Of a stretch of DNA of 64,000 nucleotides, positions 11,701-40,517 are shown piece by piece. Source of the stretch: a virus; IMG/VR virus record IMGVR_UViG_3300045988_143823; one strand, written 5' to 3'. Under the pieces are notes generated by a model. The model did not search any database. It worked only from the letters and a program-made list of their open reading frames with translations, and was not told the origin of the DNA. The first letter of the stretch is position 1. Each line of letters begins with the position of its first letter. Both the position numbers and the translations under genes were made by a program.

Positions 11701-12723
11701 GCAAATCGTCCATATATATCAGTGAAAGATTTTTATTATCGCATTAAGCCAAGTAAGCAAGCAATGATTTCATTGATTAAAAGCGGTGCATTTGATGAAA
11801 TGATGGACCGTAAAGATTTAATGATTTGGTATATTTGGGAAACGTGTGATAAAAAATCTCGTTTAACATTACAAAATTTAGCAACTCTAATTCGTTATAA
11901 TTTATTACCAGAAGATAAAGATGAATATGTAATGGCAAGACGAGTTTATGAATTTAATAGATATTTAAAAGCTGTCTGTAAAGATGGTAATATCTATAAA
12001 GTTGACGAACGAGCGATTAATTTCTTAATTGAAATTGGTTGTGATGATTTAATTGGTAGTTGTTATTTATTAGATTCTAAGGCTTGGGATAAAGTATATC
12101 AAAAATATATGGATATATTCCGAACTTGGATTGCAGAAAATAAAGATGTTATTTTAAATAAATTAAATAATAAAATATTTAAAGAAGATTGGGATAAATA
12201 TGCATCTAAATCTATTTCAGCGTGGGAAATGGAAGTCTTATGTTTCTATTATCATGAGCATGAATTAGCCCATGTAAATAATAGTAAATATGGATTTGTT
12301 GATTTCTTCCATCTGCCAGAAGAGCCTATTGTTGATAAAACATTTTCTAAAGGTAATAAAACAATTACGATGTATAAATTACATAAGATTTGCGGAACTT
12401 GTATTGCTAAAAATAAAACTAAATCTACAGTTACATTACTTACCACTTCTGGAGTTGTCGAGGTTAAATTTAGAAAAGAATATTTCTCATTATTTGATAA
12501 GTAGATTTCAGAAAAACAAATTGATGGTACTAAAAAAGTAATGGAAAAAAGCTGGTTTAATCGTGGTAATATGATTGCTGTTCAAGGCATTCGTCAAGGC
12601 GATAATTTTATAGCAAAAAAGTATGCTAGTTCTGGCGGTCACCAGTTGTATAAAATTGATAAAATTTTAGATAATGGTGATATTGAATTAAAAGATGAAA
12701 GATACAATGGAGGAGCTAATTAA
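8770..12723 (+). CDS. dnaE: DNA polymerase III alpha subunit (DnaE-type, N-terminal PHP domain), 1317 codons with one in-frame TAG at 12502
   Basis: PHP motif HNHTHYS...ITDHE, PolIII alpha core motifs, and a C-terminal OB-fold region encoded after the TAG in the same frame; ends TAA. Confidence 0.9.
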
Positions 12724-13319
12724 TGTATAATATATTAGCATTAATTGGTGAAGCGGGGAGTGGTAAGGATACCATTCTCCGTAAACTAATTGATGATACA
12801 AAACATTATTATAATGGTAAATTACCTCTACATGAAATTATAAGTTATACTTCAAGACCTCCAAGAGAAAAAGAAGTGGATGGTATTAACTACCATTTTA
12901 TCTCAGCAGAAAAATTTGCTGAAATGATTTTATAGAATCAAATGTTTGAAGCTACTGTTTTTAATGAATGGTGCTATGGCACAGGAATTGAGTCAGTCAA
13001 AGAAGGCGCTATCAATGTAGGAGTATTTAATCCAGAAGGCGCAGAGATTTTATTACATGATAAACGAGTAAATTTAATTATCGTTTATATTCACGCAGAT
13101 GATAAAATTCGATTAATTAGATAGTTAAATCGAGAAGCTAACCCAGATATTGATGAAATTATTCGTCGATATAAAACAGATAAACTCGATTTTGAAGATG
13201 CTGATGATTTATGTAATTGGTTATATACAAATAATACTCCTGCGGAATTAGAATATATATATAAAGATTTAGCATTATTCCTGTCTCGGTGGCCGGAGCA
13301 TCTGGACACAACTTATTAA
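12723..13319 (+). CDS. gmk: guanylate kinase-like nucleoside monophosphate kinase, 2 in-frame TAG codons
   Basis: P-loop GEAGSGKDT and the guanylate kinase signature YTSRPPREKEVDGINYHF; three same-frame fragments joined by TAG at 12933 and 13122. Confidence 0.7.
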
Positions 13320-13333
13320 TTTATTTACAACAA

Positions 13334-13380
13334 ACACTAAATATAGTGGATATCCTAATTTTTTCCACTATATTTAGTGC
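13334..13380 (+). promoter_or_regulatory. Two NrdR-box-like palindromes (aCACTAAATATAGTGg / cCACTATATTTAGTGc), 31 bp centre to centre
   Basis: Each 16-mer matches the NrdR-box consensus acaCwAtATaTwGtgt. The tandem pair 3 helical turns apart, directly upstream of nrdD, is the canonical arrangement. Confidence 0.6.
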
Positions 13381-13391
13381 GGAGGTTATAA

Positions 13392-15662
13392 ATGTTTTAT
13401 ATAATTAAACGTAATGGCGATGTAATGCCATTTAACAAACAAAAAATTATTGATGCTATTACTAAAGCATTTATTGCTGTAGATAAAAATATTTTTGAAT
13501 CAGATAGTATTAATAGTATCGCTGATGAAGTAGAATATAGAGCGAGTCATTTCCCCGATGGAAGTGTTAATGTTGAAGACATCCAAAATTGGATTGAAGA
13601 AGCATTAATGGCATCAGAGCGTCCTGATATTGCTCGTGCTTATATTCGCTACAGATATAAAAAAGAAGTCGCTCGCACTCATTCAACTGAATTTATTGCA
13701 GCGATTGGTGAAAAAATTCGTGGAGCTAATATTCAGAATCAAAACGCTAATGTCGATGAAGCATCATTTGGTGGGCGTATGGGTGAAGCCAATAGTCTCT
13801 TAATGAAGCAATATGCTCTTGATTATATCGTATCTCCTCGCACAAAACGCAATCATGAAGAGAATATGATTTATACTCATGACCTTGACCATTATGCTGT
13901 GGGTGACCATAATTGTTTATCAATTCCATTTGACGATTTGCTTGCTAATGGATTTAATACTCGTCAAACAGATGTACGTCCAGCAGGTTCAGTAAATACA
14001 GCATTCCAATTAGTTGCAGTTATTTTCCAATTACAATCTCTTCAATAGTTTGGTGGAGTGAGTGCTACTCATCTTGATTGGACTATGGTTCCCTATGTTA
14101 AAAAAAGTTTTAGAAAACATTTTAAAGCATATTTAACTGATGTTGATGATTATAGTGAAGGTATGGCTCTACAAATTATGAGTGATTGTGAGCCTATTGA
14201 AATTTCTAATAAAGAATTGCAAAATCAATTTGGTCATCAAAATGCTTATAATTATGCTCTGAAACAGACAGAAAAAGAAATCCATCAAGCGGTTGAAGGC
14301 ATGTATCATAATTTAAATACTCTTCAAAGTCGTAGCGGTAATCAACTTCCATTTACTTCTATTAACTATGGAACTTGCACTCTTCCAGAAGGAAGAATGA
14401 TTACAAAAGCTCTATTGGAAGTGTCTCTTGAAGGATTAGGTAAATTACATAAAACTTCTATTTTTCCTTGTGGAATTTTCCAATGTATGAAGAGTGTTAA
14501 TAGAGAACCAGGTGACCCGAATTATGATTTATTTAAACTTGCGTTAAAATCTACTGCTAAAAGATTATATCCTAATTATGCGAATGTTGATTGGTCTGGA
14601 AATGCTGGCTATGATATTAATGACCCACGCACCTATTTTAGCACAATGGGATGCCGAACCGCCAATGGATATGATATTAACGGTTTAGGTCAATTAAAAG
14701 ATGGCCGTGGAAATATTTGTCCAGTAACCATTATTATGCCTACATTAGCTATGATAGCAAAAACTAAGGTAAATAATCTTCTTGTTTTTAAAGTATTAGA
14801 TGAAGATAGCGAAGTAAAAATTAATGAATATATAAGAACATTTATGGATTTACTTGATGAAAAAATCCATGAAGCAAAAGATCAATTAATTGAGCGTTTT
14901 GATTGGATTTGTTCTCAAAGCCCGGCTTCAGCCAAATTCATGTATGAAAATAATTTGATGGCAGGCTATATTCCAGAAGAAGGAATTAGAAGCGCGCTTA
15001 AACATGGAACACTGGCTCTAGGTCAGTTAGGACTAGCAGAAACTCTACAAATTCTTATTGGCGTTGACCACACTACTCCAGAGGGAATGGAATTAGCAAA
15101 AAGAATTGAATCCTTATTTAAACAGCGTTGCGCGGAATTTAAGGAACAATATAAATTAAACTTCGGTGTTTATTATACTCCCGCGGAAAATCTCTGCTAT
15201 ACTGCAATGAAGAAATTTAAGGCTAAGTATGGCGAAATTCCTAATGTAAGTGATAAAGAATTTTTTACTAATTCAATTCATGTTCCTGTATGGAAAGAAA
15301 TGAGTCCATTTGACAAAATTGATATTGAGAGTCAATTGACTGGATATAGTAATGCCGGTTGTATTACTTATGTTGAGTTAGATTCTACAGTATCTAATAA
15401 TTTAACTGCGCTTGAACAAATTGTAAATTATGCTATGGATAAAGATATTCCTTATTTTGCTGTAAATGTTCCTAATGACACTTGTCTCAAATGCGGATAT
15501 ACTGGTGAATTCAATGATAAATGTCCTGAATGTGGTAGTAAAGAAATCCAGCAACTTCGTCGTGTGACCGGCTATTTAACTGGTAATTATAAAACCGCGT
15601 TTAATTTAGGAAAGCAAGATGAAGTTGAACATCGAGTCAAACACGTAGGAGTGATGGAATGA
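13392..15662 (+). CDS. nrdD: anaerobic ribonucleoside-triphosphate reductase NrdD (class III RNR), one in-frame TAG at 14046
   Basis: N-terminal ATP-cone, C-terminal zinc-ribbon CLKCGY...CPECG, and a glycyl-radical-like RVTGY C-terminus; ORFs 13392 and 14058 are in the same frame. Confidence 0.9.
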
Positions 15663-16153
15663 GATACGCAGGAATAATTAAAAATGATATTGCTGGAGCT
15701 CCTGGAGTGTGTGTCTCATTTTTCACTCAAGGATGTGCCAGACATTGTGAGGGCTGTTAGAATCCAGAAACTTGGGATTTTAACGGCGGAAAAGAATTTA
15801 CCACAGATACATTAGATGATATAGTAAATGCTCTTACTGCTAATGGTATACATCGTGATTTTTGTATTATGGGTGGAGAGCCCCTTGCTCCAGAAAATCT
15901 ATTCCTTGTAAATTTAATTATTGAACATATTAAAGAAGCTCTTCCCAAAACAAAAATTTTTTTATGGACTGGATATACAATGGATGAATTGGCTATGCGC
16001 AGAGAGCCACATCTAAAAAATATTGTTGATAATATTGATTGTATTATTGATGGCCCATTTAAAATTGAACAACGAGATATTACCTTACCTATGCGTGGCT
16101 CACGCAATCAAAAAGTTTATTACGCTCCATTTGACTTATGGGAAAAAATATGA
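15659..16153 (+). CDS. nrdG: anaerobic RNR activating protein NrdG (radical SAM), one in-frame TAG directly after the CxxxCxxC motif
   Basis: ATG overlaps the nrdD TGA; motif GCARHCEGC-TAG-NPETW matches the NrdG signature GC..C.GC[HYQ]N..TW. Confidence 0.85.
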
Positions 16154-16159
16154 TATAAT
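16131..16159 (+). promoter_or_regulatory. SigA-like promoter TTGACT-N17-TATAAT (extended -10 TGATATAAT) inside the 3' end of nrdG
   Basis: Consensus elements about 25 nt upstream of the 16181 start. Confidence 0.45.
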
Positions 16160-16180
16160 ATAGAAAATGGAGGATAATAA

Positions 16181-16726
16181 ATGACTAATGGATTAAAATG
16201 TATTGGTGTAAAAACCATTGATGAATTAAAATATTCTCCTCAAGTATTTGAAGATGGGGCAATAGCATATACTGATGATAAAAAAGTATATTGTTATGTA
16301 AATAATAAATGGGAAGAAGTATCAGACTATGGTACTGTTGATAAAATTGATGATACTAAAGCTAATTTAAACTTAAATTTATATGATTTAAATAAATCTT
16401 TAGTGCGTTCATTACCCGATCCCGATACAGATACATTAGGAGATTATCAACAAAAAATTAATAGTTATCATCGAAAAATAAATAATAATTATTATCTTAT
16501 GTTATGTAGAGATTATAATTATTATACTGTATTTCATTATGAACCAACAATTATTGCTGATTCATTTGGTAAATCTGTATTAGATTGTCTCGCTGATGTT
16601 GGCAAGATTAAAACATTAGACTGGAATGAAGAGCAAGGCGCAATTGAAATTTGGATGTCCATTGATGATAATATTTATATGTTCTATTTATTTGGATATG
16701 ATGCAGGGGTGGTGGATTTTTCGTGA
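16181..16726 (+). CDS. hypothetical protein
   Basis: ORF track entry with RBS GGAGGA; no recognisable motif. Confidence 0.4.
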   Translation: MTNGLKCIGVKTIDELKYSPQVFEDGAIAYTDDKKVYCYVNNKWEEVSDYGTVDKIDDTKANLNLNLYDLNKSLVRSLPDPDTDTLGDYQQKINSYHRKINNNYYLMLCRDYNYYTVFHYEPTIIADSFGKSVLDCLADVGKIKTLDWNEEQGAIEIWMSIDDNIYMFYLFGYDAGVVDFS

Positions 16727-17001
16727 ATCGTTTATTTTGTAGTTTACAACCATTTGATATGGTTCAACAAATTTATGCAGTAGATAATAATGGCAATATC
16801 ATAGATACATTTAGTTGTACGTTTGACGATATGATTGAAGCTGTTCCATCCTATTGCAAAAATAATAATATTAATGTAATTCATTTGTTAGGTATTACTG
16901 ATTACACATTTGAAATGAAACAAAGAATGATGGAATTTTGTAAAACTAATTATGCATATGAAAATTTAAATCTAATTATTGATTGTGGAGAAGGAAAATA
17001 A
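16723..17001 (+). CDS. hypothetical protein
   Basis: ORF track entry with a GTGA overlap on the previous gene. Confidence 0.35.
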   Translation: MNRLFCSLQPFDMVQQIYAVDNNGNIIDTFSCTFDDMIEAVPSYCKNNNINVIHLLGITDYTFEMKQRMMEFCKTNYAYENLNLIIDCGEGK

Positions 17002-17253
17002 TGGAATACCTAGTAAGTACAACTGAAGTATATAGAGTTGATGATGAAGCCAGTGCCACTTCTCTAATTGAGAAGGCTAAGCATGACAGTATGTATGAAT
17101 TGGCTAAATATAGTTCTGTAAAGAAGGAAAAGAAATAGAAGGGTGAGATTATTGATGAATGGTATCAAGTATCCTTGACCAAAAAATTCAATGATGAAAA
17201 AGACCCTATTTCTATCGTTAATATTAAATATGGGGAGCAAATTGATTTCTAAT
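17002..17253 (+). CDS. hypothetical protein, one in-frame TAG
   Basis: ATG adjacent to the previous TAA; the frame continues through a TAG to a TAA overlapping the dut start. Confidence 0.3.
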
Positions 17254-17809
17254 GATTAAATTTGAAAAAGTTTCTAAATACCCTGATGCAGTAATTCCCA
17301 CTCGTAGTACAGTGAATTCCGCAGGATACGATTTTACTGTAGCTGAAGATATTGTAATCCCATCTTATTCTAATCAAATGAGCGAAATGGTCCGATGGGG
17401 TAGAATAGGCCATACTTATACTCTAACTGAGATGGCAAATTTTACAAAAGAATTAAAAATAAAACCTACTCTTGTTCCTACTGGAATTAAATGTAGTCTT
17501 GGCCGCGATACATACCTTGAATTGTCTGTCCGTAGTTCTACTCCACTAAAGCATTGGATTATTCTGGCTAATGGAGTAGGAATTATTGATGCTGATTATT
17601 ATAACAATCCTGACAATGAAGGACATATTTATTTTCAAGTAATTAATCTTACTCCATATGATATTCAACTTAAAAAGGGAGATAAAATTGGTCAAGGTAT
17701 TATCAAGCCATATCTAATGACAATTGATGATAATGCTTTTGGTCAACGACTTGGTGGATTTGGCTCTACTACAAGTAGTCCAGAAGCCAATCAAGCTAGT
17801 CTAACTTAA
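17252..17809 (+). CDS. dut: dUTP diphosphatase
   Basis: dUTPase motifs SAGYDF, GVGIIDADYY and C-terminal RLGGFGSTTS. Confidence 0.85.
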   Translation: MIKFEKVSKYPDAVIPTRSTVNSAGYDFTVAEDIVIPSYSNQMSEMVRWGRIGHTYTLTEMANFTKELKIKPTLVPTGIKCSLGRDTYLELSVRSSTPLKHWIILANGVGIIDADYYNNPDNEGHIYFQVINLTPYDIQLKKGDKIGQGIIKPYLMTIDDNAFGQRLGGFGSTTSSPEANQASLT

Positions 17810-22301: not shown

Positions 22302-25300
22302 TTAAAATACTTTAATCCATACACGCCCATTAACTTTAACTTTTCCGGTCCCCCATTCTTCGTAATCAGGAACTGCTGAAATTGTACCAATCGCACAATA
22401 ACCTTTATTTTTATATTCTTCATCAGTCATAATAGAAACTGTTCCATTAGGACCAGAACATACTGGACGCCCAATATTCTTTTTAAATTCTTCATGAGAT
22501 TCATATGGATAAGCAAGAACACGTCCACTTACCGCTATTGGAGTTTTTGCCTATTCAGTTTCACCAATGGCAAAACCAAATGTATCAGATGTGATATTCG
22601 CGCCTGGCATCATGCGCTCAGTTGAAGTAATAAGAGTATCGTCACCCACTTCAATCACGCATTTACCTGATTCAATAGTATCTCCTTCACGGAATTCAGC
22701 ATAGTCATTCCATACTGCACCCCAAAGTTTATTTCCTCGTAAAACTCCAGTTCGAGTATTAATAGTCATTGTCATGCCAGCATTAGTTGAAGAACATCCA
22801 TCAACAAAACCAATACTCTACCAAGATTTAAAAATTAAATTGGCTTTTCCAGTAGTCCCTAAAATACTACCATCTGCATCTCCATTTCCAACATACATTC
22901 CATTATTTCCACCGGCTAATCTATGACAAATCATTGCTCCAGTATTAGTAGCAGTTGATGTAGTGGCGGGCAAAGAACAATTAATACTTCCATTCATAGT
23001 TCCGCCAGATAATTTTAAATAATTAGTATCAATCTATAAACCATTTATATCTCCCAAAGTTTTACTAGCACTATCAGCATTACCATGAAAATAAACATTA
23101 GTACCATCACTTTGAACTATCCACTATGTTTTAATACAATCCCATAATCCATATAACTATGCGCCACCATTATCGCGAGATAATTCGATATAACCAGTTG
23201 AGCCATTATTTACTCGGAACCCCTATCCAGCCTTATCAACAGCCAATTGACCAGTCATTGTATCTCCGGTTTTTTTGACATAATTAGAATCATGATTGTG
23301 TGAACTTGCTGCTGCTCCAATATCTGATAAAACTTGAGCTGCTGTGCGCTTATAAATCCAACCATAACCATCAATAGTAGCAAAATCTCCAGCTTTATTT
23401 CCAGCATTAGTAGTTTTTAACCACGTGCCTTCAATATAACCATTAATGCCAATACTAGAAGAACCTACTTTTAATCCAGTAGTATTAATTTGAGCAACTT
23501 CAGATACATTAGCATAAGCGCCATTATTTCCACCTGAATAGGTTTTAAATGAAATTTTATTTCCTTCATAATTTGTAGTTGTAGTAGCAGGTAAATAAAT
23601 TTCATTCACATTCATTTGATTGAAATGACCACGACTAGCTTTAAATGCGCAACCAATATTCTCCGCTGTATTTTCAATGTCTGGGCAATAATCAGGATGA
23701 GTAAATTTAGCTTCTCCTTGATTTTCAATACTACCATTTGTTTTTAATAATCCGGTCATTGTATCGCCAGATTTTTTTACATACAAACTATCATGGTTAT
23801 GATTTCCAGCTGCTACTCCTAATTCATTTAAAGTCCAACTTACATTAGAACTACCATCTACAGTTTTTTTAGCTGTTCCAATAGTAAATGTTCTTGGTGT
23901 TTTCCATTTATCAGCTGTGTCAGCATTACCTTTAAATTGAGTAGCTTTAACATTACCATTTACTTCTAATTTCTCTGTTGGCTAAGTAATTCCAATACCT
24001 ACATTACCAGAGCCATTTGCATTAGCATTTAATACTAATGGCTTAGTCTTATCACCATTTCCGTCGCCAACAGTAGAGACATATAAATCAACATAATCAG
24101 TACCATTAGGAACATTTACAGTGCTTGCGTTAAACTAAGCACTTCCACTATTAGTTTTTAAATCAAAACCTTTAGAGAAATGGGTTTTATCATTTAATGT
24201 TTTTTCTCCAGCAAACGTTTGAGTTCCAGTAGATACAACACCGGATTGACTAGCTGAAGCATCTCTTACTGTTTTTTTAGTTGCAGTAATTTTACCCTAA
24301 GTATCCTATGATACTGTATCAATAAATGAAATATCTTCATTAGACGCCGCAGGACTAGGTACTGCTGTTTGAATCTTTTTATATACCTTATCATGATTAT
24401 GATTGCCAAGCGCAACTGAAGTCGCTCCAGTACCAGTTGGTATAGTAAATTTTAATTCTCCAGCATTATTAACTGATTTAGCTGTATATGTTAATCCACT
24501 CCAACTACCAGAAGTATGATGGCTACTCTATTCCCAATTACCATTTTCAGCAAGGAATCTTTTAGTTGTATTAGTAGTATCAAATGTCGGGCCTTTAGTA
24601 ATTTTTCCGTCGGCATCTGAGTATACAATAGAATTAGTTTGTACTACACCAGCCTCATTTGTTAAATAACCATCACTACTGATATTGCCGTGAATATGAG
24701 GTTTTAATGCATATGAAGTAGAACTTCCTAAATCAACCCAATTTCCATCTATATCATATAAATATTCTTTTTTATCTCCAGTGCAAATAACAACATTACC
24801 AGCTACAGCTGTGACAGTAGTTCCATCAATAAGAGTTACTTGAGAACTGGTTGGCTTTGTAGCTACACGTCCAATATATACTAATGCACCAGAAATTTTT
24901 AAATCTGCCGCGTTAACATCGATTGTTCTAACCGCGGAGCCATCATAACTGCCTTTTGGAGTACCACCTACACTAATACTTAAGGCATGCTCAACTTTTC
25001 TTGCAATAGTAGCAGTCTTTGCATTACCATTAATATCTCTATCTAATGTTTGCCCAGTGACAATGGGTATTCCGTTTTTAAAATAAACTGGAGCGTTTTC
25101 GCTACCAGCATTGGTATTTAATTTATCAGCGCTTGTTGCAGGACCTCCCGCAGAAGAGGAACCTGCATAATCATGAGTATGGCCACTATTTGATTTACCG
25201 CTTAATAATGTATCAGTTTCTGTAATAGTATATACAGGTAATGGAATATCTTTATCTGTAGTCTAATTCGCAGTAAATGTTTCATTTACCTTGACTGGCA

Positions 25301-27485
25301 TTTTGCCAACCTTAATTGTTAATTTACCATTTCCAATAGTAGGAGCTGAAGGCAGAGCAATTGAAACCTCATCATTAATTGCTGTATTAACATGCCCCTA
25401 TTTATCAATAGTAATACGAGGAATATTAAGGGTTAATGTTTTGCCAAACTCACCAACTAATGATTTATTTGCATTACTTGTAGTAGTAATAGAAGAGACA
25501 TTATCTGCCATAGAAGGACCTTTATCGGCATGAGTGGCTTTATAGCTAACTGTATTTATGCCACCAGTTCCTTCTAATTTAATTAGCGCATCTTCTTTTG
25601 AATTAGAAGTATCAACATTGGCTGTAATCTAATGAGTGTGGCCAGTATCAGATTTACCATCTAATGCGGCTTGTAATTTATTAATATCAGCAATTTTATG
25701 TTTATGCCCTGTATCAGATTTACTATTTAATGTTTTTTGTAAATTTGTAATATCAGAAATTTCATGATTATGTAATTTAGCAGCCTTATCATCTAATGTT
25801 TTTTGTAAATTTGTAATATCAGAAATTTCATGATTATGTAATTTAGCAGCCTTATCATCTAATGTTTTTTGTAAATCTATAATATTAGAAATAGTATGAG
25901 TGTGACCAGTATTAGATTTATTATCTAATGCAGTTTGTAATCCATCAGTATCTGCAATTGTATGTTTATGATCAACATTTGATTTGTCGGCTAATTTTTC
26001 TGTTAATGTTTTCCAATTCCCAGAGCTATCTTTAAATTTAATATCAGATGTTAAATATAAATTTTGCCATGGATTTGATGTATTACCTAAATCTATTGAT
26101 ATATTTAAAGGCTCTTTAGAATTATTAATTGGTGATAATGATGCACCATTAAAATCTACTGCCTATTTATCATTAACTAGTTTAGTATGAGTATGATTTG
26201 CTACAGCTAAATCGTTAAATGATTTACCACTATCTTTAATAGTTCTACCTTTATTTCCGCTAAAAATAGCGATATGCCCATCAGTAGAACTTTCATCTGT
26301 ATTAATTACTGCTCCATCAATATTAGTTTGAACAATAGTCCAATCTCCTGCGCTATGAGTAGTTCCATCTTTAATACAAATAATTAAATCGCCAATTTCA
26401 CAAACTTCACCATTGCCAAGGTATTTACCATTATTACCACCTTTAATATCATAAACGCGATAAGTTTCACCCGCGTTATGTTTGGCTGGTAATTCATGAA
26501 TAGTAGCAGCTGCATCTCCACCGATAGTACCTTTAAATACCATAGCATCATTAGTGGCTAATAAATTATTTAATTTCTTATCAATATCTGATTTTATATA
26601 AAAATTATTTAATGACCAATCATGTACTGCGTCACCCCGTGCAGCAGCATATTGGTATAAATTGTTTCCATAATTTTCCCCGGCTTCACCAGCTTGTAAA
26701 ATTACATGTCGACTAGCTTTATAAGAATTATCACCATCATAGTTAATATATAAATTATCTTTTTCACAAGCCCCGTCATCTGTTGGCTCTGATATACCAT
26801 AAATACCACGAGTCACTAAACCCGCATTTTGAGCAGTTCCACCAAATACTGCCCCCTACTATAATGTAAGTTGATTAGAAATTATAGTATTTGTTTTATT
26901 AGTACCAAGGATATTAGCAGCATCGCCTTTAAAAATATGAGTACCACCTATTACAACATTTCCTTCAAATGATGCGCTACCATTCATATTTAAAAGAATA
27001 TTATTGTTTATATTAATACCCCAATTATTTACTAATGATTCTTCACCAGTATTTATAATTTTAATACCAGTGCCAGCTCCTTTATTATCAATAATTAGAG
27101 CCGAGCCTTCATCATTATTTTCAATTAAAACTTCATCTTTACTTCCTGTTTCAACATTAGGAATTACTAATGTCCCATCTTTATAACCAATACTACCATA
27201 TTTTAATTCAATTAAATTTTTAGTATTGTCAGCTACTTTGAATGCTAAAATAGGATAAGTTTCTGTATCTTCAATTTTAGTAGCCTTAATCCAATCAGTG
27301 CTTAAAGCACTAAGAGGAATACGATTATCTCCAATTACAGCTGGAGATGCATTAGTACCATCACCATCAATATCAATGTAAAATTTACCATCATCTGATG
27401 TAAAATATGCAAAACCTTCTTTTGCATATGGTACATTTGTCATTAAATTTTTTGACAAACCTTTACTTATTTTAAATAATGCCAT
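22302..27485 (-). CDS. giant tail-fibre/receptor-binding protein (about 1727 codons) with roughly 20-30 in-frame TAG codons
   Basis: RBS GAAGGGAG then ATG at 27485. ORFs 26859, 26163, 23223 and 22551 are all in one frame. Every fragment boundary checked in this gene is TAG. The protein carries repeated SGDTMTG tail-fibre motifs, an HxH 22-aa repeat array and a C-terminal domain paralogous to gene 28457..29326. It ends at a TAA at 22302. Confidence 0.6.
25600..25990 (-). repeat. tandem array of at least 6 copies of a 66-nt repeat encoding a 22-aa HxH unit (AKLHNHEISDITNLQKTLDDKA and variants)
   Basis: Two identical 66-nt copies at 25741 and 25807 plus diverged flanking copies, in-frame in the fibre gene; resembles phage tail-fibre His-x-His repeats. 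Confidence 0.7.
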
Positions 27486-27645
27486 TAATTTGTAAACTCC
27501 CTTCTCTGAAAAAAAGTTTATAAAAATATTTCTATTAATTTGTAAAAATTTGAATTATATTATTATTTTAATTAGGCCATTTATTTATAATATTAAAATT
27601 TAAATTTTTACAAATTAATAGAAAACGAGTGAAAGGAGATTAATT

Positions 27646-28420: not shown

Positions 28421-28459
28421 AAAAGGCAGATAACATAATTTGTTATCTGCCTTTTTTTA
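28421..28459. terminator. bidirectional hairpin terminator (aaggcagataaca...tgttatctgcctt)
   Basis: 13-bp stem plus a T-run between convergent genes. Confidence 0.65.
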
Positions 28460-29326
28460 TTTTATTTTAATCCAAATTCGATTATTGATTTGAATTTTAT
28501 CAGTACCCCATTCTTTATACTCAGGAATTTCACTTACATAACCAATTATAGCATCAGGCCATTCTTTGATTTCTTCACGAGTCATTAATGATATAGTTCC
28601 ATTAGGTCCTGAGCAAACCGCCGCGCCAGCAGTAAATTTATATCTATCTTCATAAGGATAAGCTAATACTCGTCCACATACCGCAATAGGTGTTTGTGCT
28701 TTATTAGTTTCACCAATAGAAAAACCAAATGTATCTGAAATAATATTGCTACCCAGCTGTAAACGCTAAGTTGATAATTCTAAGTCTCCATACCCAGTTT
28801 CAACTACACACCGGCCAGGCTCTTTAATTAACGATTCACGATATTCAGCATAATCATTAAATACAGCACCACGAACTTTTTTAGCTACTAAAACTCCATT
28901 ATCACCGTTTTTTGTTTTACTACCATCGCCTAATACTAAATTCTATGATCGATCAAATCCTTTAATTAATACGCTCTATTTCAAAATATTATTTTCTTTA
29001 ATATTAAACATACCTGGAGTTAAATTATCATTTTGAGTTAAATTAGTTTCGGGGGAAAAACTTAATTCACCGGTAATAATATACTGCTTATTTAATACAT
29101 CATCATCAGTCGGATCTTCAATAATTAAGTAGGTTTTATTACCATCTGGAACAATTTTTACACTTCTTACATTCTAGATTTGTAATCGCGTACCATCTTT
29201 ATTCGGACGAAGACGAATGCCAGTTTTTTTACCTGCAACTGGATAAGCTTTTATATTAGCAAGCATTTTATTTAATGCTTCATTTTGTAAAATTATTGTA
29301 GACTCATAAGGTGAATTACTACTCAT
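28457..29326 (-). CDS. fibre-tip/receptor-binding-like protein (about 289 aa) paralogous to the C-terminus of the giant fibre; 4 in-frame TAG codons
   Basis: RBS AAAGGAGAA; shares GAVFNDYAEYRE, SDTFGFSIGET, VCSGPNGT and YPYE motifs with residues encoded at 22302-22800. Confidence 0.5.
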
Positions 29327-29404
29327 TTTTCGTGTTCTCCTTTCTCTCATAATTTTATATCTATTTATTATAGAAAATTATAATAAATCATTATTTATAT
29401 TTAC

Positions 29405-32142: not shown

Positions 32143-32358
32143 TTAAACTTCTTTCCACTAATCTAATTCGTCTTCTGGAATAACTACATTTTGAACAAAG
32201 TCTTTTCCATTTTTAGTAAGACGTTTATTATTATCAGCAAGTAATTGAAGTTTTCTAACATAATATATATCTTCAAGATGAATGGGAGAAAGAATCGTTC
32301 CATTAGTACCTAAATACTCATACATTACAATTTTAGTCATTTTCTTTTCTCCTTTCAT
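32143..32358 (-). CDS. small hypothetical protein, one in-frame TAG
   Basis: ATG overlaps the upstream gene's stop (ATGA); continues 4 codons past the TAG at 32158. Confidence 0.35.
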
Positions 32359-35300
32359 GAATTAATATAATTAATTTTATTAAATCCTGAGAATAGTGAA
32401 TTAGCAGCGTCTTGTTTCAAAGTAGTATACCAATCAATTGATTCTATAGTAATTGCAGACCAAGAGGCATAGTTAATAAAGGCTGGATCGCCAGATACGA
32501 TACGCAATTTAGATTTTTCTTCTGGTGTACCAATAATAATCTTTTTAATACCTAATGTTCTATCACTATTTAAATCACTATAGCTAGAGAAAGTAAAACC
32601 ACCATTATCAATCTTCTAAACATTAGAACCAATAGTTAAGGTATCATTATCTCCAGAGAATGTATTTTGGAATGCGCTTTGATTGATTACTGCAATTGTA
32701 CCACCAATACTTACATTAGAGAATTTTGGATATACTACACGAGATTGACAACCAGGCATTTTAAATGCATAGTCTCCAATCAATCTCAAACCTTCAGGGA
32801 ATTCTACCCACACTAAGTTCATTGAATGAGAGAAAGCGGCACCACAGAAAAATCTAATATTACATTTTTCAACATCATTTTCTTTATATTTTTCAAAGAA
32901 TACATGAGTTAAATTTTCACCATAGCAAACTGGAACATAAGTAACAGAATTTAAAGTAGAAGATTTTCCTGGGAATCCTGGATTACGAGGACTGTCAATA
33001 TCTGTATCATAAATATCTCCAGGTGAACCAAATGTTGCATCAACAGCAATAACTTTTTTAGATACTCCATTTACATCAAAGAAGGCAGGTACTGTAATTT
33101 TACCTTTAACTTTTTTAGTCAAGGCTAAAGTTACACCATCTGGGATATTCCATTTTGTTTCTCCCGCCCAGTCAATATAATAAGTATCTGCTGGAGTGAG
33201 GCCAGATGTCTATTCAGAAACTGCAAAATACTCAGGATGAATATCTTCATATACGTTAATAGGATTATTATCAAATACTGCATAAAATGTAGTATCTTCA
33301 GTAATCATATACTCTTCTAATTTAATAGCAGAGGAAGCAGTTGCAGAACGACTATATCCCAAGAATTTATAAGTTTGGTCTAATGGTAAATCACTATCAT
33401 CTTTCCAAGGAATAATAGTAGACATTACAGCGTAATTACCATGAGGAATTTTTTTCTCTTCAATTAATGTATTATCTTTATAATAATATTTAACACTCCA
33501 TTTGTGAATAGGACAAATAGCATAGAATGTATAAGTGTGAATATTATTATCAAGAGTTTGTTCACTCCATTTATTAATACTTTTATCAATATTAATAAGA
33601 ATATCAGCACTAGCAGAATTAGTTAATGCCCAACCATAAAAATCATGATTTGGTTTCTTCTCACTAACATCGCCAAATGCATCAATAGGATCAGCAAACC
33701 AAGTTTCGCCTTCTTTTAAAGTCATAGAACCAATTAATTGATAGCGACCATCATTACCTTTATCTTCATCCATAATTACAAATCTAGCAGTATATCCCTG
33801 TTCAACATTCGCACAGAAGATTGTTAAATCAGGATAAGCAGCTTGGATAGTATTACGTAATTCAGATTCTTTAATAACTTCTGTATTATTAATATAAATA
33901 ATACCAGAAATATCAGGAATATTTTTACCAGAATTTTTAATCCATTTCTTATCACTAATAAATTCTTTAAACATAGCTAAATCAGTAATTTGATTTATTT
34001 TATCTTCTGGGATTGTTTCATCCTTACGATAAATTTCACCATTTTCAACTTTAATAGTCCATGCATCAAAATTAGTATAAGTATAAGGTTCTAGTCCATA
34101 ATGTCCATTATCTATATAATAAGTAGTAGATGGATTACGTTCATCATCAACAGTCATCTAAACATATGGACACCAATTTACATTGGTCATAGAAATTTGA
34201 GAAGTATTGGTCTATTGACTACGAATAGCATAATATTGTTTTAATAATTTATAACTATCATAGCCTAAGCCACCACCAACAATATTTAGAGAAGCAATTA
34301 CTGTGTCTCCCTTATCTCCAGTTGAAGTTTTATCAAAGAAACCTTGGAGATATAGACCAGGATTGGCATGTAAATTACCTTCATCATCACGGGTAGGATT
34401 CTAGTATTCATCTTCAGTGATTATATTCTTTAACAAATTAGCTTCAACTAATTCAAGATTTGTAATACTAGTAGGTAAATATACAGTATTTAATGCAACG
34501 CCTTTAGCAAACTAAACGTTAATTAAATTAGAACCAGTAGCACGGAAATTCTCTAATTTTTCACAACTAGTTAAATCTAATATAGGAGAAGCAGCATTAA
34601 ACTGAATATTACTCATATTTACTTCTTTTAATAAAGGCATACCTTTACTATCAGAAGAACTAGCAGGAATACTGAATTGGTTAACATTATCATTATGCCA
34701 ACGCTCTCCATTTGTATCTAAACCATCATATCCTAATTTCAAACTAGTTAATTTAGTAGCATCACCAGAAATTTCAAACTCTTGCCAATATAGATTACTC
34801 ATATCGCCAAGGTCTTTCATTTGATTAATACCATAAACATATAGTAATTGTTCAGGATAATTTTCACTCTTACGGACACCATTTTCAATAGAGTCAATAT
34901 TAAATCTTAATGCATGAACACCATCATATTTACGAGAAGGATAGGCTTCATTATCATCACCAAGAGTAACATAAGAAGAATGGGCTGGAGTTAATGTCAT
35001 CCAATATTCAGCATCAAATAAATGATTTTTAGTTAAAGTGCTTTCATCCTTGAAATAAGGATCGCTAGCAGTTTCAATCCACTTATCTGAAGTCTTATTT
35101 TTATTATTCGCAGCAACACGACCACGGATGCGGTTCGCACCACCACGTTGATAGTTACCTTCATTTAACCAAGAATCAATATACTCTAAACGGTTAGATA
35201 GGAATTGTTGACGAGATAGACTTCTATTTCCTTGTAAAGCATAGAAATAAGTACCATTAGTATCAACAGTATATACGCCAGTCGTATCACTACTAATATG

Positions 35301-38300
35301 TCCAGTAGTACCATCTAAGTAAGAAGCATCATTAGTAATAGTAATATATTTATAATACTCATCTAAGTTAACCGCTACTAATGGACGAGTGCCCAAGTCA
35401 GCTAAGTTATTTGTTGTATTATAATCAGTTAAATAATATGATTCAATACGATCAACAGTTTTTAAAGGTGGCTGTTTTAAATTAGAACCAAATACACTAG
35501 TAGTAATACCGCGTAAATGTCTGTATTTAGGAATAATTAAACCAGTTTTAAAATATTTATAGAAGTTATTCCATAAAACACTATCAGAAGTAGAATAGTT
35601 ACCATCTTCAGTAGCATCAACATTGTATTCAAATGAAGGAATACCAGTATTATTAATACCTAATTGAGTATCAATATCATAGAAAATTGGATACCAAATA
35701 TAGTCTCCGCCTTTCTTTTGAGGACCCCAAGAAGCCATCATACAGTTTTTACCACGAGAGTCATAACATTCAAAAATTTCTGTCATAACGAAATATGTAG
35801 CCATATATTCTTTATCGAAGTGGTCACTTAATTCATAAGTAAATTTATCACCACGATACTCTTGTGTGTCATATTTATAAGAGCGATCACCATAAATAAT
35901 AGTGGTTCCAATATAATATTTATTTGGTTCATAAGTTTCAGCAGTCACATTAGCCTTAGTTACTGCTTTACCACATTTAGCGTTTCCATCATAATTATAA
36001 TATGTTTTACTTGCATCAAATGCTTCATCTTTACATAAAACAACTAATCTATCAGCCTTTGTATCTAACTCTTCATCGCTATAAGATTCCAAAGTATAAT
36101 AACGTTTATCGGGATTAAATATATCAGTGCTATAACAAGGAACATAGGTAATATTATTATTTTTATCAATTTCACCAGTATATAATTTAGTTTTAATAGC
36201 ACTAAATAATACTGTTCCAACATAAGCAACGATATATTCATGACTATTTTCTTGATTAGGATTATAGTCAGGATTCTTTTTATAATAAGTAGTGCCTTCT
36301 ATATATTCTTTAGCTAAGGTATAAATCTATTCAGAAGTTGATGGATTAGTTGTCATAATATAATGTTTATTACTATCAAATAATTCTTCACCAACATCAC
36401 AGATTTTATAAGTACCATTTGATACAACTTTTTCAGTACAAGTACTCCAAACCCAAGCTACAGCGCGTTCCCAATTAGAATAATCTTTCAATAAATGCTG
36501 AGCGCGATTTTCTTGATTTAATGTAATATCATCCTTAGAAAATGTTAATGTTGGGTCTTTCTTACATTCTCCATCAGGAGCCATAATATAATCAAGAATA
36601 TCTTCGTCATTATGATAACGATATTCAAATGAGTCTGCTACCACAGGGGCAGATTGAACTGCATTTAATACACGAGAACCATCAGCATTAAATACATCAA
36701 ATTTCAAATCTTTGCGGTCTTGTGGGTCACGATATGAGCAGAAGGTACGGCTATTGTTTTCAAACTCCCAACATTCTGCTACTTTAGGCATACTCTTAGT
36801 ACCATCGCCTATAAATTTAGCTTTTGGATCTTTACCAGTAGTGCTGTCAAGTGCGAATCCATATACTTCATCAGAACCTTTATCTAAAAGCATATTGTAT
36901 ATACCAATAAATTGATAAATAGGCTCTGTGCTACCATCGACTGGTTTCTTTTTATGGAATGCAAGTACACGGAACCCTCGTACAGAAGTACGATAATCAT
37001 CAGTATTTTCAACCTTAAAATCGCTGTATCCAGGTTTCATAATATACCATTTATTATATTTAGGATTACTTGAATCAGCTACTTTTAATTTTGAATAAAC
37101 AGTTGGATTTTCAGCCATTAATTTTTGATATAATGCGTATGGACCTAAATCAAAATCTTCTTTGCTGGTAATCACAATATTATCTTCTAAGACTTCATTA
37201 CTTGCTGTTTTCGGATTACCCTTATGATTATAATAAGTATAAGTAGTTCCAGGAACATACTCAGTTGTTTCAGTCTCAACAGTTTTGTCAGGGTCTAAAA
37301 CCTAAAATGCTTTTGCATTATTATAATCGTCTAATGGATGTTTAGAATAAGCATTTTTAACCATATTTGCAAATCCCATATTATAAGTTCCAGAAGATTC
37401 CATGTAGTCAATCTTCATAGTAAATTTATGAGTTCCGCAAGTATAATTATTAAAATACCAATATTTTTGACGAGTTTTTTCATTGCCACGTTTTACGTAA
37501 GCAGTATTTTCAATATAAAAAGTATTAGGTTTATAAGGATTAGTTTCGCTAAATGTAACTTCCTTTTCACCATTTTCATCTTCATAATATTTAATTTTTA
37601 ATTGGCCAGTAGCAGAATCAACTAGAGGACCTAATGTTGTACTTAAAATATAAGGCTTCTAAGTAGAACCTAATACATCAGCATTATACTATTCTCTAAA
37701 TGGCCCACGGTTTAAGAAAATGTTAACACGCTTTTCGCCATCTACCGCATCGTTATTTTTAGTTTTAACTTTATAATTTCTACGAGGATAGAATTCAGAT
37801 GAAGTTCCTTGAACGCTCATTGATGCGCTATCACTAATAAATGAAGGACAATGATATTTATAATAAGTTTCAACAGCTTTTTGTTTTTCAGCTGCTGTCG
37901 CACCATCACCAAATAATTTATCAGCTTTAGCTAATTCTTCCAATTTACCTTTATTATAATACATTTCAAGTGGAGTATTAACAAATTCAACTCCAACATT
38001 TAATTTAACCTTTTTAGAATAAGGAAGTTTATTTTCACTATCTTCTAATTTAGTAGTATCAAAAATAATATAAGGCATTAATGGGGCATCAGGATGTTCA
38101 TTATTATACTTTATCATATTAGTATAGCTAAATTGGAATTCATCAATAGCAGTATTTTCTTCTGCTAATTTATTTTGATCGTAAATATTTACATTCTCAA
38201 AATCAGCAGCATAATTCATGACAATATCATTAACGTTTAAATCAGTGCGATATACTCGGACCTTATATAAATCAATATCACAGTAATCACTGTTAAATTC

Positions 38301-40517
38301 AATTTTATCATTTTCTACAACAAATCCATTTTCTTGAGTGTTTCTAACAACACTAGTTAGTACACCATTTAAATAAATATAAATTAAATTTTGAATTTTT
38401 TCTTTACTATATTTACATACAACAGATAAAGTAATAATTTTATTTTCTACATAAGATACGTTTACGGTATCAGTACCATTAGAGAAAAACGCATCCTGTG
38501 GTCCTAAACATAAACCAGTAACGGCTTTAGTATTACCAGAAGAGTAACTACCTATAACATTACTTAAATTAATTTGCTTAGCAATATGACTAAATTCTAA
38601 ATCATCATATTCCATTCTACGTTTATTACCATTTTTATCGACAAATTCAACTTCATAAGTTTTTAAATACCAAGCTAAAAATGCATCATAGTTGGTGTAT
38701 GTAGTATTAAATTTGCCAGTTTCTTCATCATAAAATGCTTTATATAATTTTTCATCATTTTTATAACGAGTAATAGTACGAATTAAATTTGAATAATCCT
38801 AAACATTACGAATTTTGAAAGTTAATTCAATACTATGAGACTGCTCAGTAGCTTGAGAGCCACTAGGATTTGAAAATACAGTGCGACCAATAGGAATAGA
38901 TAATTTAGCACCATTACTAATACGTAAACAAGTTTTATTATCTTCATCCGTAGTCCAACCATTATTATACCAATTAAAATTAGTAAAAGTCGCCGCACAA
39001 GGTTCAGCCCCTAGAGCTGTAGAAGAATTTACTAAAGTAGTGCGTTTAGCCAACGTTTCAGAATTAGAACGTCCACTACCTACTGTGTTTAATAAATAAG
39101 TTAAGAAGCCTTGCTTCTAAATACCAAAGTCTGTTCTTGTTGGGTCATTTACAACACGAATTTCAATTTTACGGGTAGTCTCACGCGCTCCATCACCACA
39201 AGTAATAGTGTAGTGATTAATTACATTTAATTCAGGATTAGCAATTTCAAAAATAGCAAATTTCTTAGAATCTGTAATTGTTTGAGGAGAATAAGAAAGT
39301 TCAATATTATTACGTTTAAAATGCACTACTGGGTTTTCAGCCTATGGGTCAAAAACACGGAAAGGAATTTGAATAGTGTCATAATTATAATATTCATCTT
39401 TATAGTCTCCCAACCAAATAATTGGAGGAGCTTGAGGGTCTAAACCATCATAAACAGCTACTTCAAAAATTAAAGGGTCAACTTCAATTCCTTTTTTGCC
39501 ATTAATTGATTGGAATAAACGAATCCAAACTTTATGATAACCATTAACTACAGGGATATATTGTGAAACATTAACAGTCTATAATGTAGCCGAATTAGCG
39601 GCTAAAGATACACTTAAAAATGGTTCATCTTCATTGTCAAAATAATATTCAACAATTTTATCCATAGCGCCATTAACATTACATTGTAATACTAATTTAC
39701 TAGGCTCGAAATAACTTAAATTAGAAAAACTACTTGATTCTTGTAATTCTAACTTAGAAGTTTTAAATGTTACTAAACGAGTAACTGTGCTTGGATGATT
39801 GGTTTGACTAGCCACTAATACTAATCTTGAAGAAGCATCGTCTTTAGCCAATTTACCAAATTCAAAAGCATATTTCTCGCCATCAGGCACTTGGAATGTT
39901 CCTGAATTATATTGGTTGTAATTGGTGCCATCATCAGTATATTCTAACTTCCAATTAATTGTTAGAATAGAGTCATAAGAATTACCCTTTTTATTTTTAG
40001 CTGATGTGGCGACAAATGTTATTTCTTGAGAACGTCCATTAATTAAGTTAACAGTAGGTAATGAGTCTACAGTTAATTCAATATCAGAAGCTAATGAGCT
40101 AGGGTCATCTCCTCCCCCTCCACCAGCAACAGTTAAACGACGACATAGCACATTTTGAAATGCTCGCTGAACTTTTATTACACGATAAAAACAATTATCA
40201 CCTAAATTGATAATTAAATCATCTTCTTCGGGATACTCTCCGCCTTCAATAGCTCCGATTGGAATATTGATTTCATCTTCTAGTTTTTCAGCATCAGTCG
40301 GAGTATAATTGGCATAATAAATACCAGAATTACTTCCTGAGCCACCACCACTACCGCTTCCTAAAAGCTTTCGTGATACCATTGTACCATCAGCTTGAGT
40401 ATAGTCTATGAAAATTTTACCAGTATCAACTGCAAAATAAACATATCCATCATTAAAACCCATTAAATCTAATTTAGCTTCAGTACCACGAACAGGGATG
40501 AATCGTTTATTGCTCAT
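32355..40517 (-). CDS. giant virion/tail protein (about 2720 codons) with about 14 in-frame TAG codons; N-terminal fibre-anchor-like motif
   Basis: RBS AAAGGAGATACTTGC then ATG at 40517. Eight ORF-track fragments (39579, 39117, 38799, 37689, 36327, 34512, 33210, 32616) are all in one frame. The gaps at 36093-36326, 37176-37688, 38616-39578 and 32355-32615 were manually translated: they contain only TAG and no TAA/TGA. It ends at a TGA at 32355. Confidence 0.5.

What the first reader, a model, noticed from the sequence alone, without database searches (positions are those of the whole stretch)
25600..25990. Tandem 66-nt (22-aa) His-x-His repeat array inside the giant fibre gene
Two identical 66-nt units plus at least four diverged copies encode ...GHTHxIxDIxxLQKTLDDKAAKLHNHEISDITNLQKTLDDKA.... 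HxH repeats of this spacing are known to coordinate metal ions along trimeric phage fibre shafts. The near-identical copies suggest recent expansion and a recombination hot spot that can change fibre length.
Basis: partly seen in the sequence, partly recalled or inferred. Interest (0 to 1): 0.55.

Follow-up and report, generated by a model that had tools for sequence, protein, structure and literature searches.

The report
His-x-His repeat array in phage fibre
A long tail-fibre gene of a roughly 200-kb human-gut phage contains six in-frame copies of a known 22-residue His-x-His "phage tail repeat", and one copy was gained or lost very recently, so this is a clear but ordinary example of a fibre changing length by whole repeat units.

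Summary
Window 25611-26006 on the minus strand holds six in-frame 66-nt (22-aa) units. Units 3 and 4 are identical at 66/66 nt; the other unit pairs share 36-50 of 66 nt. The host gene (22302-27485, minus strand, 1,727 aa) is open only if its 17 in-frame TAG codons are read as sense, most likely Gln.

The array is a strong match to Pfam PF12789, PTR "Phage tail repeat like" (126 bits for the protein, 173 bits for the array; cut-off 27). This family is large: 5,143 cluster representatives match, and the 22-residue HxH spacing dominates among them.

A near-isogenic relative (99.9% identical over 25 kb; 1 mismatch in the 5.1-kb gene) differs only by exactly one 66-nt unit. Homologous fibres carry 1, 2, 3, 5 or 6 units. 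The duplicated unit lies between 17-nt direct repeats, which fits slippage or unequal recombination.

Recent expansion and length variation are therefore supported. Metal coordination is plausible but is only predicted for this repeat type. Its unit profile found just one solved chain, a mycobacteriophage tail collar fibre, and no T4 gp37-type needle.

Verdict: a new member of a known kind, of low-to-moderate interest.

The parts
22302..27485 (-). Tail-fibre-like gene: 1,727 codons plus a TAA stop, with 17 in-frame TAG codons read as sense (probably Gln). The start is ATG at 27485, preceded by GAAGGGAG.
   Evidence: Reading TAG as sense gives an open frame. Database homologues begin at the same MALFKISKG. 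The frame stays open in six diverged relatives carrying 11-18 TAG codons each.
25611..26006 (-). Array of six 22-aa (66-nt) PTR units, consensus LQxxLDxKSxxGHxHxIxDIxx, covering aa 494-625.
   Evidence: PF12789, 173 bits for the array alone; invariant L1, L5, K8, H13, H15, I17.
25728..25876 (-). A 149-nt exactly duplicated tract. It comprises units 3 and 4 (LQKTLDDKAAKLHNHEISDITN twice) plus the shared 17-nt direct repeat ATTTACAAAAAACATTA that brackets the unit.
   Evidence: 83-nt exact identity at a 66-nt shift. (relative L001 lacks exactly 66 nt here, with flanks 100% identical).
25629..25631 (-). In-frame TAG codon directly after the last GHTH of the array. It sits at the variable x position of HxHx, where the other units have T, E or K.
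   Evidence: TAG is conserved at this column in all six relatives compared (column 619).
26187..26195 (-). Isolated HxH (ANHTHT, aa 431) upstream of the array. Five more isolated HxH motifs lie downstream at 25173-25181, 24690-24698, 24393-24401, 23793-23801 and 23292-23300.
   Evidence: One search gives the coordinates. Their spacing is conserved across homologues.
26306..27485 (-). Conserved N-terminal part of the fibre (about aa 1-393, ending near GDWTIVQTNIDGAVI). Many relatives share it at 90-95% identity while carrying quite different distal parts.
   Evidence: about 40 hits cover only 24% of the query at 90-96% identity and have no PTR. One search shows the junction sequences.
22305..22745 (-). 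C-terminal module of about 147 aa (GAVWNDYAEFRE...RVWIKVF). It is also present at the C-terminus of the neighbouring gene 28457-29350(-).
   Evidence: 56% identity, E 7e-58. No Pfam, PHROG or PDB sequence match.

Best explanation
The feature is a six-unit array of the 22-residue PTR repeat (Pfam PF12789) in the shaft of a 1,727-aa tail-fibre-like protein. The protein belongs to a roughly 200-kb human-gut phage that reads TAG as a sense codon, most likely Gln.

Shown here:
- Each unit has the same register, LQxxLDxK-xxx(G)-HxH-xIxDIxx.
- Both His residues and the hydrophobic positions are invariant.
- Units are gained and lost as whole 66-nt blocks.
- The exact U3/U4 duplicate differs from a near-isogenic relative by a single-unit indel bracketed by 17-nt direct repeats. 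This is the signature of replication slippage or unequal homologous recombination.
- Relatives carry 1, 2, 3, 5 or 6 units, and some units are mosaics of their neighbours, which points to gene conversion.

Inferred:
- The array acts as a modular spacer. It sets the length of the segment between the conserved virion-proximal part (aa 1-393) and the exchangeable distal, presumably receptor-binding, part.
- The fibre is assumed to be a homotrimer. In that case each unit would contribute a short helical (coiled-coil-like) segment and a knot where three HxH motifs (six His) could hold one metal ion. That would give a ladder of six sites in the array, plus six isolated HxH sites elsewhere in the protein.
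For: - Repeat anatomy and reading frame.
- PF12789 scores 126 bits for the protein and 173 bits for the array, against a cut-off of 27.
- PHROG minor tail and tail fibre hits.
- The same repeat occurs in annotated tail proteins of Bacillus phage G, Gordonia, Mycobacterium, Moraxella, Salinivibrio CW02 and Alteromonas R22Y phages.
- The unit profile hits one solved chain, 9d93 'Tail collar fibers, gp4', at E 3.7e-7. The matched peptide is 100% identical in Mycobacterium smegmatis phages of about 50 kb.
- Family size is 5,143 cluster representatives. The 22-aa HxH spacing dominates, with runs of up to 15.
- Both His are present in 884 of 886 units.
- Single-unit indel against L001: 1 mismatch in 5,118 nt of the gene, and 99.89% identity over 25 kb with no other indel.
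- An independent six-unit allele (ABCC'DE) occurs in two samples.
- Copy-number spectrum and mosaic units.
- TAG is conserved, and where it varies it swaps most often with CAA/CAG.
- The AF2 monomer shows a helix over 'IxDIxxLQxxLDxK' and a break at the HxH (low confidence).
Against: - Nothing here shows trimerisation or metal binding.
- The AF2 monomer is weak (pLDDT 62.8, pTM 0.23), and no multimer prediction was possible.
- The exact C'C' allele was not found in any other contig, so it rests on one assembly.
- The His conservation count is biased, because the HMM used to collect units rewards His.
- The direction of the last event (duplication in the window or deletion in L001) cannot be decided.
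- The neighbouring genes have almost no annotation, so the fibre's position on the virion is unknown. The one solved homologous unit is in a tail collar fibre, not a baseplate fibre.
Confidence: 0.8

Rival explanations
1. The identical pair is an assembly artefact. The true sequence would carry five units, as in L001, or the diverged six-unit allele ABCC'DE, as in L002/L003. On this view a short-read assembler created the C'C' arrangement from a mixed population.
For: The C'C' junction was not found in IMG/VR or in JGI metagenome contigs. The window's exact protein is not among the cluster members. Closely related five-unit and six-unit alleles coexist in public samples, so mixed populations are plausible.
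Against: The control junction B-C' is also absent from IMG/VR, so that absence says little. The metagenome scan had no such control. Two identical 66-nt copies (132 nt) can be resolved by k-mers longer than 66 nt. Both five-unit and six-unit lengths have been assembled independently, so a six-unit array is not unusual. The rest of the gene matches L001 at all but one base, which does not look like a chimera with L002.
Confidence: 0.1
2. The array is only a helical spacer, or a flexible or antigenically variable linker, and the HxH pairs do not bind metal. They could instead serve as pH-sensitive or inter-chain hydrogen-bond knots, or be conserved for folding.
For: The AF2 monomer predicts mostly helix. 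No metal-bound structure of a PTR array was found. The published claim for the 22-aa type rests on docking only.
Against: Both His are almost invariant across a very diverse family. HxH triplets on three-fold axes bind Fe or other ions in every solved fibre or spike where they occur, namely T4 gp37, P2 gpV and Mu gp45, as cited in PMC12609058 and PMC11821841.
Confidence: 0.25
3. The TAG codons are real stops, so the region encodes several short ORFs or a decayed pseudogene and the repeats are not part of one long fibre.
For: Under the standard bacterial code the region gives only fragments. No suppressor tRNA is found in the 64-kb window.
Against: A 5.2-kb frame is interrupted only by TAG, never by TAA or TGA. 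It stays open in six relatives down to 79% identity. TAG positions are conserved, and where they vary they are replaced most often by CAA/CAG. Reading TAG as sense raises the ORF total from 14,075 to 22,624 aa across the window. The window covers only about a third of the roughly 200-kb genome, so the tRNA could lie elsewhere.
Confidence: 0.02
4. The array is a T4 gp37-type receptor-binding needle, in which the chain doubles back to form a six-stranded beta structure with an internal Fe ladder. It would then be the receptor-binding tip rather than a shaft spacer.
For: It has HxH motifs, and the R22Y paper aligns its 22-aa-spaced motifs with gp37.
Against: The unit profile finds no gp37-type or pyocin-fibre chain in the PDB even at E up to 10, and Pfam Phage_fiber_2 does not match. 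The array lies at aa 494-625 of 1,727, with about 1,100 residues of further domains after it. Units can be removed one at a time, which would be hard to accommodate in a hairpin needle whose two halves must pair.
Confidence: 0.05

Closest known systems
Pfam PF12789 (PTR, 'Phage tail repeat like') arrays in tail proteins of cultured phages, e.g. Bacillus phage G gp369, Alteromonas phage vB_AmeP-R22Y gp12, Salinivibrio phage CW02 tail fibre, and Gordonia, Mycobacterium and Moraxella phage minor tail proteins
   Same: The same repeat is found by profile (126-173 bits) and by tblastn. The 22-residue HxH spacing is the same: R22Y has His at 135, 157, 179 and 201. The family consensus is the same, H-x-H-x-I-x-D-V/I-T-G-L-Q-x-A-L-D-x-K. 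These proteins are also annotated as tail or fibre proteins.
   Different: The host phage is an uncultured, TAG-recoded gut phage of about 200 kb with no near match in INPHARED. One unit carries an in-frame TAG. All array-region matches to cultured phages are below 60% identity. The exact duplicate and the near-isogenic five-unit and six-unit alleles are specific to this lineage.
PDB 9d93 chain La, 'Tail collar fibers, gp4'. The matched peptide is 100% identical in Mycobacterium smegmatis phages of about 50 kb; assignment to Bxb1 is my inference.
   Same: It contains a clear PTR unit, SSHTHSIANVTGLQDALDEKLD (E 3.7e-7), and a weaker one, AHDHVAADVTDLDSA. It is the only solved chain found with this repeat.
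   Different: It has only one or two units, not a regular six-unit array. It is a 356-aa collar fibre rather than a 1,727-aa fibre. I could not read its coordinates or the paper, so whether metal is bound at its HxH is unknown.
T4 gp37 long-tail-fibre needle and related HxH Fe sites (R-type pyocin fibres, P2 gpV and Mu gp45 spike tips)
   Same: These have HxH motifs on a three-fold axis. This is the experimentally established way in which three chains hold one ion with six His (cited in PMC12609058, PMC11821841 and PMC11705849). It is the likely working principle here.
   Different: There is no detectable sequence relationship. In gp37 the chain doubles back and the motifs are not in a regular 22-residue tandem array. 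Here the units are helix-plus-knot modules that can be added or removed singly.
Stop-codon-recoded (TAG to Gln, genetic code 15) gut phages. That such phages are described in the literature is from my own knowledge; I did not look it up here.
   Same: In-frame TAG codons are rare in replication genes (0.8-1.3 per 1,000 codons in PolIII-alpha and NrdD) and dense in structural genes (up to about 20 per 1,000).
   Different: Membership of any named recoded-phage clade was not tested. No suppressor tRNA or release-factor gene was seen in this window.

Membership tests
Pfam PF12789 PTR (Phage tail repeat like) | Protein scores above the curated gathering threshold of the family HMM | tested here: met
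   126.4 bits for the whole protein and 173.2 bits for the array alone, against a cut-off of 27. The precomputed Pfam annotation of the homologues is also PF12789.
Pfam PF12789 PTR (Phage tail repeat like) | Tandem units of about 22 residues, each with a conserved HxH followed by IxD(I/V)xxLQxxLDxK | tested here: met
   Six units lie in exact 22-aa register. Invariant columns are L1, L5, K8, H13, H15 and I17. The same consensus and spacing hold across 150 diverse representatives.
Pfam PF12789 PTR (Phage tail repeat like) | Occurs in phage tail or fibre proteins | tested here: met
   PHROG minor tail and tail fibre hits. Cultured-phage matches are annotated as tail, minor tail or tail fibre proteins. 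A nearby gene hits a PHROG tail family. Virion location was not shown experimentally.
Pfam PF03406 Phage_fiber_2 (phage tail fibre repeat) | Match to the family HMM | tested here: not met
   Not listed even at E up to 1 in the Pfam scan of the protein or of the array.
T4 gp37-type HxH iron-binding needle | Sequence similarity to solved gp37-type or pyocin-fibre chains | tested here: not met
   The profile and single-sequence searches of all PDB chains at E up to 10 return only 9d93 gp4 and LRR noise.
T4 gp37-type HxH iron-binding needle | Homotrimer with six His octahedrally coordinating Fe2+ on the three-fold axis | not testable with these tools
   Only monomer AF2 was available (pLDDT 62.8). 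No multimer or ligand modelling could be run, and PDB coordinates could not be read.
Genetic code 15 (TAG to Gln) recoded phage | In-frame TAG codons conserved in long, otherwise open genes, and exchanged with Gln codons in relatives | tested here: met
   There are 17 TAG codons in the fibre gene. Nine columns are TAG in all six relatives. Where TAG varies, CAA/CAG is the commonest partner, in 6 columns. The gain in ORF length across the window is shown.
Genetic code 15 (TAG to Gln) recoded phage | Phage-encoded suppressor tRNA(CUA) | tested here: inconclusive
   ARAGORN finds no tRNA in the 64-kb window, but relatives' genomes are about 200 kb.

The most novel reading that the evidence does not exclude
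The PTR array may behave like a contingency locus for fibre length. The 15-17-nt identical unit starts would make single-unit gain, loss and gene conversion frequent enough that near-isogenic phages in human guts are polymorphic for 5 or 6 units (and 1 to 6 across the species group). That would tune the reach of the distal receptor-binding part to the thickness of the host's surface layer. Each unit would also add one metal-clamped node, forming a regular 22-residue-pitch metal ladder for which no multi-unit experimental structure was found in my PDB searches.
Probability: 0.25. Interest if true: 0.45.

Novelty: new member of a known kind. Interest (0 to 1): 0.25.

Why it matters
The repeat family, HxH metal sites in fibres and length variation by repeat number are all established ideas, so nothing here changes the picture. 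The locus does have three practical uses.

- It supplies a very clean natural pair: two phages 99.9% identical over 25 kb that differ only by one 22-aa unit, plus a third allele with a diverged sixth unit. A pair like this allows a direct test of whether one PTR unit changes host range or adsorption.
- It shows that gene calling with the standard code would break this fibre into fragments, so PTR arrays in recoded gut phages are likely under-annotated.
- My PDB searches found only one solved chain with this repeat, a collar fibre with one clear unit. A short recombinant fragment of this regular six-unit array would therefore be a reasonable target for deciding whether the 22-residue HxH ladder really binds metal.

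Tried and rejected
- Megablast of 12 kb around the gene against INPHARED phages found no match, so no annotated close relative exists there.
- A single-sequence PDB search returned mostly leucine-rich-repeat noise caused by the 'ISDITNL' periodicity. I rejected these hits as compositional.
- The search for homologous proteins with the 44-column unit profile returned only 11 short proteins and was not informative. The exhaustive representative search replaced it.
- The AF2 monomer of aa 442-618 was low-confidence (pLDDT 62.8, pTM 0.23). A Foldseek search of the PDB with it gave no match at E <= 0.001, and I discarded that result as meaningless.
- Literature search for 9d93 and the Bxb1 gp4 collar fibre: a text search for '9D93' gave noise, a phrase search gave noise, and the Bxb1 Cell paper is not held. 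Another mycobacteriophage cryo-EM preprint says nothing on HxH.
- Exact scans for the C'-C' junction in IMG/VR and JGI metagenomes found nothing. A control junction shared with L001 was also absent from IMG/VR, so the IMG/VR negative says little. The metagenome scan had no control.
- NCBIfam gave only a sub-threshold hit.
- PHROG scans of seven neighbouring proteins gave almost no functional names.
- I considered a diversity-generating-retroelement target. I did not pursue it because the variation is in unit number and unit mosaics, not in scattered point substitutions. No test was run for it.

Full report

Yes. Tandem Repeats Finder reports a period-66 array at 25645-25930 (4.3 copies, 81% matches, no indels) and a period-132 array at 25632-25970. 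The plus strand is closed in all frames there. One minus-strand frame reads through the whole region.

In that frame there are six units of exactly 22 codons: U1 25941-26006, U2 25875-25940, U3 25809-25874, U4 25743-25808, U5 25677-25742 and U6 25611-25676. U3 and U4 are identical at 66/66 nt (LQKTLDDKAAKLHNHEISDITN). The exact identity at a shift of 66 nt runs for 83 nt, so the duplicated tract is 149 nt (25728-25876). All other unit pairs share 36-50 of 66 nt.

**2. The gene exists only with TAG read as sense.**

Under the bacterial code the region contains only short ORFs. If TAG is not a stop, a single 1,751-codon frame (22302-27554, minus strand) appears. Across the window the total length of ORFs of at least 100 aa rises from 14,075 to 22,624 aa.

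The likely start is the ATG at 27485, behind a GAAGGGAG ribosome-binding site. This gives a 1,727-aa protein with 17 in-frame TAG codons.

I aligned codons from six relatives (79-99.98% identical). Each carries 11-18 TAG codons and never a TAA or TGA. Nine columns are TAG in all six. Where TAG varies, its commonest partner is CAA/CAG, in six columns. TAG to Gln is therefore the best reading.

No tRNA lies in the window. However, relatives' contigs are 197-201 kb, so two thirds of the genome is unseen. TAG density is 0.8-1.3 per 1,000 codons in the PolIII-alpha and NrdD genes and up to about 20 per 1,000 in the large minus-strand genes.

**3. What the repeat is.**

The protein matches Pfam PF12789, PTR 'Phage tail repeat like', at 126 bits. 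The array alone scores 173 bits (E 1e-51), against a cut-off of 27. Pfam Phage_fiber_2 does not match. PHROGs gives a family of unknown function plus weaker minor-tail and tail-fibre families over the array and the roughly 30 residues before it (aa 487-685).

tblastn finds the same repeat, below 60% identity, in annotated tail proteins of several cultured phages:
- Bacillus phage G (gp369)
- Microcystis phage MJing1 ('tail repeat like protein')
- Moraxella, Gordonia and Mycobacterium phages
- Salinivibrio phage CW02
- Alteromonas phage R22Y

An exhaustive HMMER scan of 1.84 billion cluster representatives finds 5,143 proteins at E <= 1e-3 and 255 at E <= 1e-30. In the best 150, an HxH-to-HxH spacing of 22 residues occurs 1,219 times; the next most common spacing, 19, occurs 114 times. 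Runs reach 15 units.

Units collected with a 22-column HMM give the family consensus LQxALDGKAxxxHxHxIxD(V/I)TG. Both His are present in 884 of 886 units. That count is biased, because the HMM rewards His. The window's array is therefore an ordinary, mid-sized member of a very large known family.

**4. Recent expansion and length variation.**

The best homologue, P0001, is 22 aa shorter. Its locus, L001, is a 197.5-kb human-gut contig. At the DNA level its gene differs from the window's by one mismatch in 5,118 nt plus one 66-nt gap, which is exactly one unit. Over 25 kb the two are 99.89% identical with no other indel.

A third allele, P0121, comes from two samples (L002 and L003). It also has six units, but its third unit is a diverged type C (LQDTLDNKAPKSHNHAISDITN) that differs from C' at 9 of 66 nt. 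The close relatives are therefore ABCC'DE, ABC'C'DE (the window) and ABC'DE. Either duplication or deletion explains the window/L001 difference, and the direction cannot be decided.

In the five-unit allele, unit C' is bracketed by the 17-nt direct repeat ATTTACAAAAAACATTA. That is the expected substrate for slippage or unequal crossing-over.

Among the 120 listed homologues, most carry five units (ABCDE). Others carry three (ABE), two (AE) or one (an A/E hybrid). Several units are mosaics of their neighbours; for example, P0044's last unit starts like unit D. In P0045 the array's last GHTH is joined directly to the GHTHDYAGSS motif that normally lies 153 aa downstream. The claim that the array is a recombination-prone site that changes fibre length is supported.

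**5. Where the array sits in the protein.**

About 40 homologues share only the first 24% of the protein, roughly up to GDWTIVQTNIDGAVI at aa 393, at 90-96% identity. They then continue with unrelated distal parts that lack PTR. Relatives with one to three units also have different C-terminal parts.

The array therefore lies in the exchangeable distal portion, just after a conserved proximal part that presumably attaches to the virion. About 1,100 residues of further domains follow it. These include six isolated, positionally conserved HxH motifs at aa 431, 769, 930, 1029, 1229 and 1396.

**6. How it probably works.**

Shown: the units are strictly modular, in register and removable one at a time, and the two His, L1, L5, K8 and I17 are invariant.

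Weakly indicated: the AF2 monomer (pLDDT 62.8, pTM 0.23) places a helix over I-x-D-I-x-x-L-Q-x-x-L-D-x-K and a break at the G-H-x-H segment.

Inferred: in a homotrimer each unit would give a short three-helix segment and a node where three HxH motifs hold one ion. Fe coordination by HxH has been shown crystallographically for T4 gp37 and is inferred or proposed from conserved HxH motifs in cryo-EM structures of P2, Mu, Sf14 and Bas63 spike tips (cited in PMC12609058, PMC11821841 and PMC11705849). The array would then be a metal-stapled spacer whose unit count sets the reach of the distal domains.

For the 22-residue type the published support is only an AlphaFold trimer plus docking for phage R22Y. 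The one solved chain with a clear unit is 9d93 'Tail collar fibers, gp4' (E 3.7e-7). The matched peptide is 100% identical in Mycobacterium smegmatis phages of about 50 kb. I could not read its coordinates or the paper. I rate metal binding at roughly 0.5-0.6. I rate the repeat identity and the copy-number dynamics at about 0.9.

**7. Rivals.**

- An assembly artefact for the exact pair cannot be excluded without reads. The C'-C' junction is absent from IMG/VR and JGI contigs, but a control junction is also absent from IMG/VR. I rate this at 0.1.
- A metal-free helical spacer is possible (0.25).
- TAG as a true stop is effectively excluded (0.02).
- A gp37-type doubled-back needle is unlikely (0.05), because there is no sequence relationship and units can be removed singly.

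**8. Verdict.**

This is a new member of a known repeat family (PF12789) in a TAG-recoded gut phage. It comes with an unusually clean natural example of single-unit gain or loss. Interest is low to moderate (0.25).

Noticed in passing
whole window; e.g. 22302-27485(-), 32355-40544(-), 50172-57452(-): The phage uses TAG as a sense codon. No long ORF needs TAA or TGA read-through. TAG is rare in the PolIII-alpha (8767-12723) and NrdD (13392-15662) genes, at 0.8-1.3 per 1,000 codons, and dense in the large minus-strand genes, at up to about 20 per 1,000. In the fibre, TAG swaps most often with CAA/CAG in relatives. No tRNA is present in the window.
   Followed up: partly
22305-22745(-) and 28457-29350(-): The last ~147 aa of the fibre (GAVWNDYAEFRE...GRVLAYPYE...RVWIKVF) are 56% identical (E 7e-58) to the C-terminus of a 297-aa protein encoded upstream of the fibre gene, on the same strand. 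The shared module has no Pfam, PHROG or PDB sequence match. It could be a shared receptor-binding or chaperone-like end domain.
   Followed up: partly
27400-27485(-), 42200-42317(-), 43180-43270(-): Three genes open with variants of the same fibre-type N-terminal motif: MALFKISKG...EGFAYFTSDDGKFYID, AVKFKLGT...GTFYLTSDSSRLYIG and NYVKFQRGT...NTLYFIYES...GYLYLG. This suggests several different fibres that attach in the same way.
   Followed up: no
26187-26195, 25173-25181, 24690-24698, 24393-24401, 23793-23801, 23292-23300 (all minus strand): Six isolated HxH motifs lie outside the array, at spacings conserved among homologues. The last two sit in a repeated HNHDxxYVKKxGDTMTG context. They look like domain-boundary nodes of the same kind as the array's HxH.
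   Followed up: partly
about 26306 (aa ~393) of the fibre gene: This is a module-swap junction. Dozens of relatives share aa 1-393 at 90-96% identity and then continue with unrelated distal regions of 600-1,000 aa without PTR repeats.
   Followed up: partly
L001/L004 flanks; window 8767-17809(+): The neighbouring plus-strand block encodes PolIII-alpha, guanylate kinase, anaerobic ribonucleotide reductase NrdD with its radical-SAM activase, and dUTPase. This comes from precomputed Pfam hits on relatives' loci. It fits an anaerobic gut host; the samples include Hadza gut metagenomes.
   Followed up: no
P0137, P0138, P0142 (representative proteins, not in the window): Some members of the PTR family are 5,000-7,000 aa long and carry 72-77 HxH motifs in many short 22-aa-spaced runs separated by other domains.
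   Followed up: no
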